Made by a program: the position numbers. Shown piece after piece: positions 30,001 through 33,000 of a stretch of DNA of 56,879 nucleotides. The stretch's first letter is position 1. Each line of letters starts with the position of its first letter. The DNA is taken from the IMG/VR virus record IMGVR_UViG_2541047887_000008; one strand, given 5' to 3'. The DNA comes from a virus. Taxonomy: Duplodnaviria; Heunggongvirae; Uroviricota; Caudoviricetes.

Positions 30001-33000
30001 CCAGGACGACTACTTGCGCTGATTATCTGCTGCAGCATTTCTGCCGGTTTTTCGCACGGATGTTTCCCGGGATAGTACTGCACCGGTTTATACGTCCACA
30101 CATCGGTGTACGGCACCTGCACCGTCACACCGAAATACCGCCGCAAATTTTTATATTCACTCAGCAGTTCCATATACTGCCGGTTCAGCTCACTGTATGT
30201 GCTGACCAGCTGGTGGTGTGGCTTTTCCAGTTCCCCGCGCTGATGTTTCTCTTCTGCCACCCGGGCAAACAGCGACTGTAATTTCAGATAATCGCTTTCG
30301 TTCGGTAGCTGCCACTGACTGGCACTGAACCAGTGCGGCACCATGTTTTTCTTTCCTGTGGCATCTGCAATCTGTTTTGCCGTTATCCCCAGGGCAGCGC
30401 GCGCATCACGAAAGTAAGCAATCAGCGGGGCCATCACATGCTGTTTCAGTGCCCTGCCCTTCGCCTCATACCCGGCATCTTTCGGACGATACGGCCCCTG
30501 ATAATGTTCCGCGAACAGAATGCGCTCTGTGGCGGGGAAATACGCCCGCAGGCTTTCCTTGTTGCATCCGTTCCAGCGTCCGGACGGCTTCGCCCAGATA
30601 ATATGGTTCAGCACACTGAAGCGTTCACGCATCATGATTTCGATATCAGATGCCAGGCGATGACCACAGAACAGGTAAAGACTTCCGGCAGGTTTCAGCA
30701 CCCGCCAGAACTGCGCCAGACACTGGTCCAGCCACTTCAGGTAATCATCGTCGCCCTTCCACTGGTTATCCCAGCCCTCAGGCTTCACTTTAAAGTACGG
30801 CGGGTCCGTAACTATCAGGTCAACAGAATTTTCGGGTAACGACCGGATAAATTCCAGGCAGTCGGCGTTGATTAACTCACAACTGGATATTTTTACAGTA
30901 TTAAGCATGGATCATTAAGCCTGTCTCTGATAGGCTCATTCTGCTTTTGCGCAAAGCAGTGGGCCTGAGGTTTGCTTGTGAACCCAACGCATGAGCAGAT
31001 GGCTGGCAGGTGCCGCTAACACCCACCAGCCGCCCATTACCACAAATAAAAAAGCCTTCACTGAGGAAGGCGTCTGTAACAACCGAACTGATAATCTGCC
31101 AGACCCGCCATAACAAGCTGGGTCAGTATTAACTGGCAACGTTCGCGTGAAAGGTAAGTATTATGCGCAATTTCCCCGACGGTCGCCGGTTCGGTGACGC
31201 TTAATTCATTAAACACCACTCTGGCAGTTTCGGTCATATCCTGCTGTTTTAGCATGCCTTTTCCCTTTTCTGGTTAACGTGACATACCAATAACTCTTGT
31301 CGAAAAAGCCAGCAAGCTGAAAGACCGATATTAATAACTACCAGCGCGTTTAATGTACCGCACTTCGGGCATCAAAAAACCCGCTCAATGGCGGGTTTAA
31401 TTAATGAGGTAACAACCTTAACTTGTTTGATTCTGTACTTCAGTGGCCTTCTTCCCTTCAATACCTGCCTTGAAAGTCTCGAATGTTTCAACATTAAACA
31501 GCGAAAAAGATTCGATCTGATCGAAGGGCAACACATGCCTAAACTGATAAACTGACAATGGCTCAGAAGTTAATGTGATACCCTGACTAAGGTAGTAGTC
31601 CACATAATTATGCTCAACACAAAAAGTCAGAGTATCTTTATCTCTGTACCCGGACATAAAAGGGATTAGCACCAATGTGTTAGTATCTAACTGATTGAAA
31701 CGTGCCTCATCAATCATCCCCACATAGACCTTGCGAGACTTCAGTGTAACCAACAATAACAATCCACGCTCAACTGATTCAAGAAGGATATTTTCCACGG
31801 CACTATGAGCCGCAATTTCTTCAAAAATAGCCTTGCGCTTTTGTGGGTCTTTATGGTTTTTGGTTGCCTCTGATGCCTTCCCGATACTTACAATAATAGT
31901 GAAAGCTATCGACATAGCAGGGAACATGCTCAACCCAAACACTTGCATTTTGAGAAAGTCATGGGCGAAAGTAAAGGGAGCGTACCAACCAAACAAGTAC
32001 GCTGGAATGTTCCAAAGTGACATTCCAGCGTACAGAACAACAACCAATAAGGCAGCGATAAGAATACCACTTATGAGAAACTCACCACCTTTCAGTGCAA
32101 CATCAAAGTATGCATTCCAACCGATCGCTTTGCTTTGACGGTATCGTGACGGCAAATGGCAGTTGGTATAGTGATAACCACAAACTAAAACAATAACAAT
32201 CAGCGCAGCCCACATAGAAGACTAACCCTTCTTCTTAGTACTCAATCCCTTAATATTGGCTGCGAAAGCCTTTTGCACATCAGCGTTGTTGCGATTCAAA
32301 ACCATCGAACCATTACTATCAATGAAAAACTTGTCACTTTCATGCTTAGCTTCTTTTCCATCACACATGGAAGCTATATCTGCAATTTTTTTGATGATCT
32401 TCTCAGGTGAGAGGATCGCGCGAGCGGCAAGTGTTAGATATTTCGGCATGCTCCCCTCCGTTAACAGATAAAACACAAAAAGCACACAAACAAAGTATGC
32501 GCACATCCTAACCTATGTGGCTAACAACCACTTTCTTTTATAAGATGAGTGTATTACCTAAAGGGTAACTCGGCAATAGCAGAATAGTTTTAGCAAGGTA
32601 AAATCGATGGTCTTTCGCTCAACTTACGACAAAAGATAGCCCGCTCAGCAGCAGGCTTTGTTTAGTTTGCCATCGTGTACAAAATCAGCAAAATATCAGA
32701 TTTACACGAAATGTACGCGATTTAATTGACTTTTGCAATAACCCGCCGCGAAAAGGTCGCTTTTTGTTGCGATCTTGTTTTCATGGTATAAATCAAAGAT
32801 TCGTTGTCGAGGTTCTTAAAAATGTCGCACATATCACGCCAGTAGTGCGCATAATTGTGGCTCCAGTTGTCTGACTTAACTCCACACAGTCTGGCAAGTT
32901 CCTGTCGCTGGTAGACGTCACACCCAGTAATCCTCCCCCTGACATCCTGCGCCGCCAGCCAGATTAATTTCTTCAGACGCTCAAGCGTTTTCCCTGTAAT

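What the first reader, a model, noticed from the sequence alone, without database searches (positions are those of the whole stretch)
31374..32657. AT-rich two-gene membrane cassette bounded by terminators, between the Q-like gene and the methyltransferase
A 75-aa soluble protein (32222..32449, strong Shine-Dalgarno) is followed 6 nt later by a 265-aa protein (31418..32215) with 3-4 N-terminal TM helices and a soluble C-terminal domain. The pair sits in a visibly AT-rich segment, preceded by a tR'-like hairpin (32626..32657) and followed by a strong intrinsic terminator (31374..31400). This is the moron-type position where lambda-like phages carry lysogenic-conversion or phage-exclusion genes. 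I recognise neither protein, so this is the best candidate here for an uncharacterised membrane-acting abortive-infection, superinfection-exclusion or toxin/partner system.
Basis: partly seen in the sequence, partly recalled or inferred. Interest (0 to 1): 0.75.

Follow-up and report, generated by a model that had tools for sequence, protein, structure and literature searches.

The report
Mobile phage-borne membrane Sm-like gene pair
A small AT-rich two-gene cassette in an E. coli lambda-like prophage encodes a tiny basic protein and a membrane protein with an Sm-like (RNA-chaperone-type) cytoplasmic domain. The pair always travels together, turns up in the spots where phages keep anti-phage weapons, and has never been characterised, so it is a good candidate for a new phage-exclusion system.

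Summary
Two co-directional ORFs (75 aa, 32222-32449; 265 aa, 31418-32215; minus strand) lie in a 41% GC segment of a 50% GC window, between two stable hairpin terminators. The segment sits downstream of a Q antiterminator gene.

Comparison with other prophages shows a swappable cargo slot. One prophage with the same backbone and the same two hairpins carries a PemK/MazF toxin there. Only 14 of 5,426 complete E. coli genomes carry this cassette.

Neither protein matches Pfam, NCBIfam or PADLOC. The large protein has three hydrophobic segments (N-out, C-in) and a cytoplasmic domain that models as an Sm/LSm-like small beta-barrel. Its family is large, with 2,648 clusters at 50% identity.

In all 80 of 80 viral loci kept, and in all 8 other homologue contexts looked up, a homologous 55-94 aa gene lies immediately upstream. 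The two proteins co-diverge (Mantel r 0.90).

The pair occupies many different phage positions, an ICE and chromosomal islets. It recurs in the P2 gpA-portal defence hotspot beside DRT3, bSEFIR, HEC-06 and Rst_3HP. Rousset et al. 2022 catalogued relatives there as "2 TM" cargo, and they are absent from that paper's tested-systems table.

Most likely this is an uncharacterised membrane-acting phage-exclusion or abortive-infection module. The function is inferred, not shown.

The parts
32628..32657 (-). Upstream hairpin terminator (tR'-like) at the Q-side junction of the cargo slot. Stem-loop 32657-32638, then AUCUUUUGUC.
   Evidence: Found by the terminator scan. Folds at -14.2 kcal/mol, z -3.5. 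Conserved in prophages carrying different cargo, so it belongs to the backbone/junction.
32450..32627 (-). AT-rich 5' non-coding leader of the cassette. It contains the palindrome TTACCCTTTAGGTAA (32568-32554) and the Shine-Dalgarno GGAGGGG (32459-32453).
   Evidence: Sequence. The region is absent from the PemK-carrying prophage, so it belongs to the cassette. The palindrome is conserved at -119/-125 of the start codon in the Klebsiella-type cassettes L007-L009, whose surrounding leader sequence differs. No consensus promoter on this strand.
32222..32449 (-). Gene for a 75-aa basic soluble protein (pI 9.7), the obligate partner. Conserved core D-x-x-G-x-x-x-L-N-x-x-N-x-x-V followed by a helix.
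   Evidence: ORF and annotation. pI and no hydrophobic segment. A homologue lies immediately upstream of every family member examined. AF2 model pLDDT 68, with the hairpin-plus-helix core at about 85.
31418..32215 (-). Gene for a 265-aa inner-membrane protein. Three hydrophobic segments (about 2-19, 47-68, 97-115; N-out/C-in), then a cytoplasmic Sm/LSm-like beta-barrel (about 139-240) and a C-terminal helix. Invariant motifs L-K-S-R-K-V-Y-x-G (158-166) and P185..S-G-Y-R (188-191).
31372..31400 (-). Downstream intrinsic terminator: stem AAACCCGC/GCGGGUUU followed by a U tract. It forms the distal junction of the cargo slot.
   Evidence: Folds at -15.9 kcal/mol, z -3.9. Conserved, and similar in sequence to the upstream hairpin, in prophages with other cargo.

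Best explanation
This is a horizontally mobile two-gene accessory cassette (a 'moron') carried as cargo in the Q-to-lysis interval of a lambdoid E. coli prophage. Its most likely role is phage exclusion or abortive-infection-type defence, or more broadly conflict between mobile elements.

Proposed mechanism (inferred). The 265-aa protein sits in the inner membrane with its C-terminal Sm-like beta-barrel in the cytoplasm. Sm-fold domains typically assemble into hexameric or heptameric rings. I propose the protein oligomerises through this domain and acts as the effector. It would do so either by perturbing or permeabilising the membrane, or by capturing a phage nucleic acid or protein at the membrane. 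The invariant basic loops KSRK and SGYRDKD are the candidate binding surfaces. The 75-aa basic protein is translated just upstream and always co-inherited. It would be the obligate partner, most plausibly a regulator or antitoxin-like inhibitor that holds the effector in check until infection, and possibly an autoregulator acting at the conserved leader palindrome.

Shown: the anatomy, the fold prediction, pair conservation and co-divergence, mobility, and hotspot and defence-neighbour context.

Inferred: oligomerisation, the effector activity, the role of the small protein, and the anti-phage phenotype itself.
For: (1) Cargo, not backbone.
- The cassette occurs in 14 of 5,426 complete E. coli genomes, while its flanks match 2,107.
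- The same slot, bounded by the same two hairpins, holds a PemK/MazF toxin in strain PSS-15.
- The cassette is 41% GC against 50% for the window.
- Against strain 41 the cassette differs at 24 of 342 codons, while the adjacent Q gene differs at 76 of 230 codons.

(2) Obligate pair.
- 80 of 80 IMG/VR loci have a same-strand 61-94 aa ORF ending -16 to +44 nt from the large gene.
- Every non-redundant upstream ORF tested (41 from the loci, plus the window's own) matches a profile built from the small protein and eight of its homologues, E 1e-43 to 4e-6.
- The same holds in Proteus, Klebsiella, Shewanella, Photobacterium and Erwinia contexts and in three metagenomic contexts.
- Identity matrices of the two proteins co-vary: Mantel r 0.90, 0 of 2,000 permutations.
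- Purifying selection: 18 synonymous versus 6 non-synonymous differences.

(3) Many unrelated insertion sites.
- After Q-like antiterminators of three PHROG families, after NinG, between tail chaperone and tape measure, between baseplate and tail fibre, and next to Ant.
- Also on an ICE beside type IV CRISPR csf genes, at a prophage edge, and as a two-gene islet between core genes.

(4) Defence neighbourhood.
- In P2-like phages, relatives lie in the gpA-portal hotspot directly beside DRT3a/b, bSEFIR, HEC-06/Orf5, Rst_3HP Hp1/Hp2, a PD-Lambda-3_B/HEPN-like protein and PDC-S59.
- That locus is an experimentally established anti-phage hotspot (PMC9122126).
- That paper's Table S5B lists family members as cargo #43 (93 loci) and #57 (75 loci).

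(5) Architecture.
- AF2 pLDDT 88.9.
- Three conserved hydrophobic segments, with net charge +2.5, about 0 and +1.6 in successive loops, put the C-terminus in the cytoplasm.
- Membrane-spanning effectors paired with a soluble partner are a recurrent design in abortive infection (established knowledge: RexAB, CBASS/Pycsar TM effectors; also noted in PMC9122126).
Against: - No experiment on any member was found in the searchable literature.
- No PADLOC model matches the protein or 77 diverse relatives.
- Guilt by association in hotspots is not proof. About a quarter of P2 hotspots carry partition systems, and some carry toxins.
- No sigma-70 consensus promoter was found above chance upstream of the pair in the window or in four other loci. 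Lysogen expression is therefore unproven, and the genes could be expressed only by Q-dependent read-through.
- Oligomerisation, nucleic-acid binding and toxicity are untested.
- The small protein's model has low confidence (pLDDT 68).
Confidence: 0.5

Rival explanations
1. Non-abortive superinfection exclusion. The membrane protein blocks genome entry of incoming phages at the inner membrane, as P22 SieA, T4 Imm or HK97 gp15 do. The small protein would be an accessory factor.
For: It is an inner-membrane protein encoded by prophages. One homologous pair sits between the tail assembly chaperone and the tape-measure gene (L004), which by my recollection is where HK97 carries the gp15 exclusion moron. 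A PF14373 Imm_superinfect gene lies two genes downstream in L008 and L009.
Against: - The conserved, invariant part of the family is the cytoplasmic Sm-like domain, not a periplasmic or intramembrane surface.
- The pair also occurs as chromosomal islets and on an ICE, away from any phage.
- No similarity to Imm or other exclusion proteins was seen.
Confidence: 0.15
2. A toxin-antitoxin-like addiction module. Its main benefit is stabilising the mobile element that carries it: a membrane toxin plus a small antitoxin, with no specific anti-phage role.
For: - Two-gene layout with a small upstream gene, tight spacing and strict co-inheritance.
- Stand-alone islets between core genes.
- A bona fide PemK/MazF toxin occupies the same slot in another prophage.
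- A conserved leader palindrome could be an autoregulatory operator.
Against: - No similarity to any known TA family.
- The small protein has no recognisable DNA-binding fold.
- Many TA modules are now known to act in phage defence, so this rival overlaps with the main explanation rather than excluding it.
Confidence: 0.15
3. Lysogenic conversion unrelated to phages. A membrane-tethered Sm-like protein would alter host physiology, for example by acting as an ion or mechanosensitive-type channel or by tethering and regulating host RNAs at the membrane.
For: - The Sm fold is classically RNA-binding.
- The Q-to-lysis slot is where lambdoid phages carry host-directed cargo such as stx (established knowledge).
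Against: - The sporadic distribution (14 of 5,426 genomes) and the neighbourhood of defence genes fit conflict systems better.
Confidence: 0.1
4. A phage life-cycle function, such as lysis timing or late-gene accessory activity. The pair would be expressed only from the Q-dependent late transcript.
For: It lies downstream of Q and a tR'-like terminator and upstream of the lysis genes, on the same strand. No independent promoter was detected. Three TM segments with N-out/C-in topology match class I holins.
Against: - It is absent from the great majority of prophages sharing this backbone.
- It is found at unrelated positions in sipho- and myovirus genomes, on an ICE and in chromosomes.
- At 265 aa with a folded cytoplasmic domain it is unlike holins.
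- The prophage has its own holin, endolysin and a third annotated lysis protein.
Confidence: 0.07

Closest known systems
Untested '2 TM' cargo systems #43 and #57 of the P2 gpA-gpQ hotspot (Rousset et al. 2022, Table S5B)
   Same: Same protein family. The listed sequences carry the TLKSRKVYIG...SGYRDKD motifs, and #57 is listed with a 78-aa second protein. They are phage-borne cargo in a variable hotspot.
   Different: These are about 35% identical relatives in P2-like phages, not the lambdoid Q-slot cassette. They were catalogued only: they are not in that paper's tested-systems table, the Sm-like domain was not noted, and #43 was listed without the small partner.
Lactococcal AbiP / AbiC (AbiC/P group)
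   Same: Membrane-anchored abortive-infection proteins of about 250 aa with an N-terminal TM anchor and a soluble domain. In AbiP that domain binds RNA and ssDNA non-specifically, and AbiP toxicity is triggered by a phage tail protein (PMC13064643). This is the closest 'works like' model for a membrane-tethered protein with a nucleic-acid-binding fold.
   Different: No sequence relationship was detected: no Pfam Abi_C hit and no PADLOC AbiC hit. AbiP and AbiC are single-gene systems with 1-2 TM helices. The fold of their soluble domain was not compared here.
Lambda RexAB
   Same: A prophage-encoded two-gene exclusion system with one soluble and one polytopic inner-membrane protein. The membrane protein is thought to act as the effector that depolarises the cell (established knowledge).
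   Different: There the soluble partner is the large protein (RexA, 279 aa) and the membrane protein is small (RexB, 144 aa, 4 TM). No PADLOC or Pfam hit of any kind was returned for either protein. RexB has no Sm-like domain.
Sm/LSm/Hfq small beta-barrel proteins
   Same: Predicted fold of residues about 139-240: an N-terminal helix plus a bent five-strand barrel, with a Gly in strand 2 as in the Sm1 motif.
   Different: No Pfam LSM hit. The domain is fused to a membrane domain. The invariant residues lie in the beta1-beta2 and beta3-beta4 loops, whereas my recollection is that Sm proteins bind RNA through loops 3 and 5; I did not map this on the model. Ring formation and RNA binding are untested.
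Pfam DUF6338 (PF19865)
   Same: Four of 77 distant family members give sub-threshold matches over the N-terminal membrane part and the start of the barrel. The best is 4.6e-5, 23.5 bits against a gathering score of 26.5.
   Different: The window protein and its close relatives do not match at all. DUF6338 is itself of unknown function, and only one unrelated paper mentions it.

Membership tests
Moron (autonomous accessory cassette in a phage genome) | Present or absent between otherwise homologous phage backbones, at a discrete junction | tested here: met
   14 of 5,426 genomes carry it, while 2,107 match its flanks. The alignment with PSS-15 shows precise replacement by a PemK gene between the same two hairpins.
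Moron (autonomous accessory cassette in a phage genome) | Deviant base composition and its own terminator | tested here: met
   GC 0.409 versus 0.50. Terminator at -15.9 kcal/mol directly after the large gene. Terminators also follow the pair in L004 and L046.
Moron (autonomous accessory cassette in a phage genome) | Own promoter allowing expression from the repressed prophage | tested here: inconclusive
   No sigma-70 consensus match on the coding strand in the 188-nt leader. Counts were not above shuffles in the window or in four other loci. Needs 5'-RACE or RNA-seq.
Sm/LSm fold superfamily | N-terminal helix followed by a strongly bent five-stranded antiparallel beta-barrel | tested here: met
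Sm/LSm fold superfamily | Sequence membership (Pfam LSM/Hfq profiles) | tested here: not met
   No LSM or Hfq hit for the protein or for 34 and 77 relatives, even at E<=1 and E<=0.01. A profile search of PDB sequences found nothing.
Sm/LSm fold superfamily | Ring oligomer (5-8 subunits) and RNA binding | not testable with these tools
   Only single-chain prediction was available.
Known anti-phage defence systems (PADLOC-DB 2.0.0) | Match to a model of a known or candidate defence protein | tested here: not met
   No hits for either protein. Among 77 relatives there were only two single chance-level hits.
Defence-island / hotspot-associated gene family | Recurrent location beside known defence genes in variable hotspots | tested here: met
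   Seven of 10 proteins beside the pair in P2-like hotspots hit defence models strongly: DRT3a/b, bSEFIR, HEC-06, Hp1/Hp2 and PDC-S59. An eighth gave moderate hits (PD-Lambda-3_B, HEPN). The hotspot is defined experimentally in PMC9122126. No genome-wide enrichment score was computed.
Type II toxin-antitoxin modules | Small upstream antitoxin with a DNA-binding fold, a toxin of a known family, toxicity and neutralisation | tested here: inconclusive
   The layout fits. No known TA family hit. The small protein's model shows no HTH or RHH. Toxicity is untested.
AbiC/AbiP group | Sequence or profile similarity to Abi_C (PF14355) or the PADLOC AbiC model | tested here: not met
   No hit.
MscS-type mechanosensitive channels | MS_channel domain; pore-lining TM3 followed by beta and alpha-beta domains forming a heptamer | tested here: not met
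P2 Tin | Homology to P2 Tin (253 aa), encoded in the same P2 hotspot | tested here: not met
   hhalign probability 0.07%. Tin lies on the opposite strand downstream of old, and has no upstream small partner.
Holins (class I) | Small (about 70-110 aa) three-TM protein with a short charged C-terminus, adjacent to the endolysin | tested here: not met
   265 aa with a folded 140-aa cytoplasmic domain. The prophage has separate holin and lysozyme genes about 2.3 kb downstream.

The most novel reading that the evidence does not exclude
The large protein could be the first example of an Sm/LSm-fold immune effector. In this reading a membrane-tethered Sm ring, held off by a 75-aa partner, acts on phage infection in one of two ways. 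It either opens an MscS-like oligomeric pore, or it captures phage RNA or ssDNA at the inner membrane, which would be an AbiP-like mechanism arrived at with a different fold. This would define a large and previously unnamed defence family (over 2,600 clusters at 50% identity) spread by phages, ICEs and chromosomal islets across Gammaproteobacteria.
Probability: 0.2. Interest if true: 0.8.

Novelty: new variant of a known kind. Interest (0 to 1): 0.62.

Why it matters
Prophage cargo slots are a proven source of new bacterial immune systems. This pair is a large, strictly two-gene family with no Pfam, NCBIfam or PADLOC entry. It sits beside validated defence systems, and the one catalogue that lists it does not include it among the systems it tested.

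If it defends against phages, it would add a new effector architecture: a membrane anchor plus an Sm-like barrel. It would also link an ancient RNA-chaperone fold to immunity. The cassette is compact (about 1.2 kb) and therefore easy to test.

The terminator-flanked slot downstream of Q is the position where Stx phages carry toxin genes. It is also a useful marker for finding further cargo in lambdoid prophages.

Tried and rejected
- P2 Tin and Orf91. These looked like an attractive match: a 253-aa protein in the same P2 hotspot next to a 91-codon ORF. Rejected: hhalign probability 0.07%, opposite strand, and Orf91 is DUF3850.
- AbiC/AbiP homology. No profile hits. Kept only as a functional analogue.
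- Tai and HepS prophage defence papers. These describe unrelated systems.
- Profile search of PDB sequences: nothing.
- BFVD fold search: only uncharacterised small viral proteins.
- AFDB50 fold search: the library was unavailable.
- Rfam on the region: nothing significant in the cassette. Sub-threshold isrJ (E 0.88) and Trp-leader (E 0.83) matches overlie the two hairpins and are chance-level.
- Literature searches by accession, DUF6338, Sm-like plus anti-phage, and P2-hotspot plus transmembrane found no characterisation. The DefensePredictor supplements contain no family member.
- Brenes & Laub 2025, on E. coli prophage defence, is cited by held papers but is not itself in the library, so it could not be checked.
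- Promoter prediction: consensus scans were not above chance in five loci. Manual candidates (extended -10-like elements) were too weak to report as features.
- Stop-codon read-through fusion. In the window the two ORFs are in frame, separated by TAG plus 6 nt. Rejected because the spacing in relatives is -16 to +44 nt, in all frames.
- Lipoprotein or signal-peptide reading of the N-terminus. Rejected on inspection: there is no lipobox and Cys12 is not conserved.
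Full report
**Setting**

The window is part of a lambdoid prophage of Escherichia coli. A 1.7-kb stretch spanning the finding (31200-32900) is 100% identical to prophage sequence in several complete E. coli chromosomes, for example strain S4 (NZ_CP107140).

Genes run on the minus strand in this order:
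- a DUF968 protein
- RusA
- antiterminator Q (32722-33417; PF06323, E 1.5e-83)
- the two genes of the finding
- a 65-aa TrmB-like gene (31058-31255, phrog_331)
- an N6/N4 DNA methyltransferase (29859-30908; PF01555, E 1.9e-44)
- three tRNA genes
- the lysis genes

**Observation**

The ORFs exist as stated. The small gene is best read as 75 aa from the ATG at 32449. It has a GGAGGGG Shine-Dalgarno, its N-terminus is conserved among homologues, and RefSeq annotates it that way. The large gene starts 6 nt after the small gene's stop codon.

The segment between the hairpins is 40.9% GC. The window is 50.0% and the flanks are 49-59%. Both hairpins fold much better than shuffled sequence: -14.2 kcal/mol (z -3.5) upstream and -15.9 kcal/mol (z -3.9) downstream. 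The only correction is that there are two to three transmembrane segments rather than three to four.

**It is cargo in a swappable slot**

A megablast of 31200-32900 against 5,426 complete E. coli genomes found the flanks in 2,107 genomes but the whole cassette in only 14.

Strain PSS-15 has the same Q 3' end, the same upstream hairpin, the same downstream hairpin and the same TrmB-like gene. Between the hairpins it carries a PemK/MazF toxin gene instead. The two hairpins resemble each other (CCnGCnnnTGAGCGGG plus a T run), and in PSS-15 they are nearly identical direct repeats. That would suit cassette exchange by recombination; this is my inference.

Against strain 41, the cassette differs at 24 of 342 codons (18 synonymous, 6 non-synonymous). 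The adjacent Q gene differs at 76 of 230 codons. So the cassette is younger than the backbone it sits in, and it is under purifying selection.

**The proteins**

Neither protein hits Pfam, NCBIfam or PADLOC. PHROGs places the large one in phrog_3630, of unknown function.

The large protein, modelled with an alignment of 34 homologues, gives an AlphaFold2 model at pLDDT 88.9. It has:
- an N-terminal helical membrane region
- two cytoplasmic helices
- a beta-barrel spanning residues 153-240
- a C-terminal helix

Three hydrophobic segments are conserved family-wide. Net loop charges of +2.5, about 0 and +1.6 give an N-out/C-in topology, which places the barrel in the cytoplasm.

The invariant residues cluster in two hairpin tips of the barrel: L158-K-S-R-K-V-Y-x-G166, and P185 followed by S188-G-Y-R191.

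The small protein is basic (pI 9.7) and has no hydrophobic segment. Its model is weak overall (pLDDT 68). It does have a better-defined conserved core of a beta-hairpin plus a helix, at about pLDDT 85.

**Family size and the pair rule**

A word-indexed search found only 82 clusters, all in Enterobacterales and all named 'hypothetical protein'. An exhaustive profile search of 1.84 billion representatives found much more: 2,648 representatives at E<=1e-3 and 1,495 at E<=1e-10. Most of the 150 listed are full-length proteins of about 240-300 aa.

Across 77 diverse representatives the core motif is [TS]-L-x-S-x-K-x-Y-x-G ... P-x-x-S-G-Y-R ... Y-x-x-x-Y. Only four of the 77 give sub-threshold matches to Pfam DUF6338, itself uncharacterised.

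A scan of IMG/VR found 232 viral contigs encoding relatives. In all 80 loci kept, a 61-94 aa ORF on the same strand ends between -16 and +44 nt from the start of the large gene. Every non-redundant upstream ORF tested (41 from the loci, plus the window's own) is homologous to the window's small protein (E 1e-43 to 4e-6). They share the core D-x-x-G-x-x-x-L-N-x-x-N-x-x-V.

The rule also holds for relatives at 24-32% identity outside phages. Pairwise identities of the two proteins across 42 loci co-vary strongly: Mantel r 0.90, with 0 of 2,000 permutations reaching it. The two genes are a single inherited unit.

**Where the pair lives**

The 38 non-redundant viral loci have 151 different neighbour-gene clusters. 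Sites include:
- downstream of Q-like antiterminators of three different PHROG families (7 of 93 neighbour proteins scanned)
- after NinG
- beside Ant
- between baseplate and tail-fibre genes
- between tail chaperone and tape-measure genes
- next to a P4-type primase and an Imm_superinfect gene in Klebsiella-type elements

Beyond phages it is found in three other settings:
- on a Photobacterium conjugative element beside type IV CRISPR csf genes
- at the edge of a Shewanella P2-like prophage
- as a bare two-gene islet between core genes in Erwinia and in a metagenomic gammaproteobacterium

The most telling site is in P2-like phages, where the pair sits between the replication gene A and the portal gene (phrog_91, phrog_68). 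Rousset et al. showed experimentally that this locus is an anti-phage hotspot (PMC9122126).

There the genes immediately beside the pair are known or candidate defence genes: DRT3a/b, bSEFIR, HEC-06/Orf5, Rst_3HP Hp1/Hp2, a PD-Lambda-3_B/HEPN-like protein and PDC-S59. Eight of the ten proteins tested matched a defence model, seven of them strongly, a ninth only marginally, and one not at all.

That paper's Table S5B lists two family members as hotspot cargo. #43 has 93 occurrences and is labelled '2 TM'. #57 has 75 occurrences and is listed with a 78-aa second protein. Neither appears in the table of systems they cloned.

**Interpretation**

The data show a compact, mobile, strictly two-gene module under purifying selection. 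Phages and other mobile elements carry it as optional cargo in the places where they keep weapons against competitors.

I therefore favour a phage-exclusion or abortive-infection role, with the polytopic membrane protein as effector and the small protein as its obligate partner (confidence 0.5).

The mechanism is inference:
- Sm-fold domains normally form rings, so the cytoplasmic barrel probably drives oligomerisation of the membrane domain.
- The invariant basic loops are candidate sites for binding nucleic acid, a phage trigger or the small protein.
- The best functional analogue is lactococcal AbiP, a membrane-anchored protein that binds RNA and ssDNA and is triggered by a tail protein (PMC13064643). 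No homology to AbiP or AbiC was detected.

A conserved palindrome (TTACCyTTTAGGTAA) lies about 120 nt upstream of the start codon in both the E. coli and the Klebsiella-type cassettes. It hints at regulation of the leader.

**Rivals and caveats**

The rival explanations are:
- non-abortive superinfection exclusion
- a pure addiction (TA) module
- host-directed lysogenic conversion (channel or RNA tether)
- a late life-cycle function

The last is least likely, given the sporadic distribution and the many unrelated insertion sites.

The main caveats are:
- There is no experimental evidence for any member.
- No promoter was detectable above chance, so expression could depend on Q read-through.
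- The structural similarity scores are moderate.
- The literature library is incomplete. In particular, a 2025 study of E. coli prophage defence could not be read.

**Novelty**

The category, prophage cargo for inter-phage conflict, is well known. Members of this family have been seen in a hotspot catalogue. Four points appear to be undescribed in the material I could search:
- the family itself
- its obligate small partner
- its membrane-anchor-plus-Sm-like architecture
- its size

I rate it a new variant of a known kind, with interest 0.62.

Noticed in passing
window 29293-29483 (-): Strong match to the sRNA family STnc100 (RF02076, 139 bits, E 8e-32), just downstream of the prophage tRNA cluster and upstream of the lysis genes.
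   Followed up: no
window 29563-29809 (-): Three tandem tRNA genes (annotated Ile, Arg, Arg in the identical RefSeq prophage) lie between the methyltransferase and the lysis cassette. This is the arrangement seen in Stx-converting and phiP27-like phages, but no stx genes follow here.
   Followed up: partly
window 31058-31255 (-): A 65-aa winged-helix (TrmB-like, phrog_331) gene with its own terminator-like hairpin (31071-31054). It is conserved in phiP27 and Stx2 phages at 87-89% nucleotide identity.
   Followed up: partly
window 32628-32657 and 31372-31400; L002 about 3230-3260 and 4020-4050: The two terminators flanking the cargo slot are sequence-related (CCnGCnnnTGAGCGGG plus a T run). In strain PSS-15 they are near-identical direct repeats flanking a PemK/MazF toxin gene. 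They may be recombination handles for cassette swapping.
   Followed up: partly
window 32554-32568 (-); L007-L009 5876-5890: A perfect palindrome TTACC(C/T)TTTAGGTAA lies about 120 nt upstream of the small gene's start. It is conserved between the E. coli and Klebsiella-type cassettes although the surrounding leader differs. It may be an operator.
   Followed up: partly
window 32661-32722 (-): Between the Q stop codon and the tR'-like hairpin, two similar elements (CTGATATTTTG and CTGATTTTG) lie 11 nt apart. This is reminiscent of a late promoter -10 followed by a -10-like pause or qut element. The consensus scan instead placed a promoter-like site inside the Q 3' end (32810-32783). Neither was tested.
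   Followed up: no
window 32222-32240 (-): The conserved C-terminal K-K-K-G of the small protein (AAG AAG AAG GGT) overlaps the likely ribosome-binding region of the large gene. Part of that conservation may therefore reflect translational coupling rather than protein function.
   Followed up: no
L099 10846-16789: A Photobacterium conjugative element carries a type IV CRISPR-Cas locus (Csf1, Csf3, DinG-like helicase) about 2 kb from a homologous pair.
   Followed up: no
L008 7524-7835; L009 7598-7918: In Klebsiella-type elements, a gene matching PF14373 (Imm_superinfect) lies two genes downstream of the homologous pair. This suggests a small cluster of exclusion functions.
   Followed up: no
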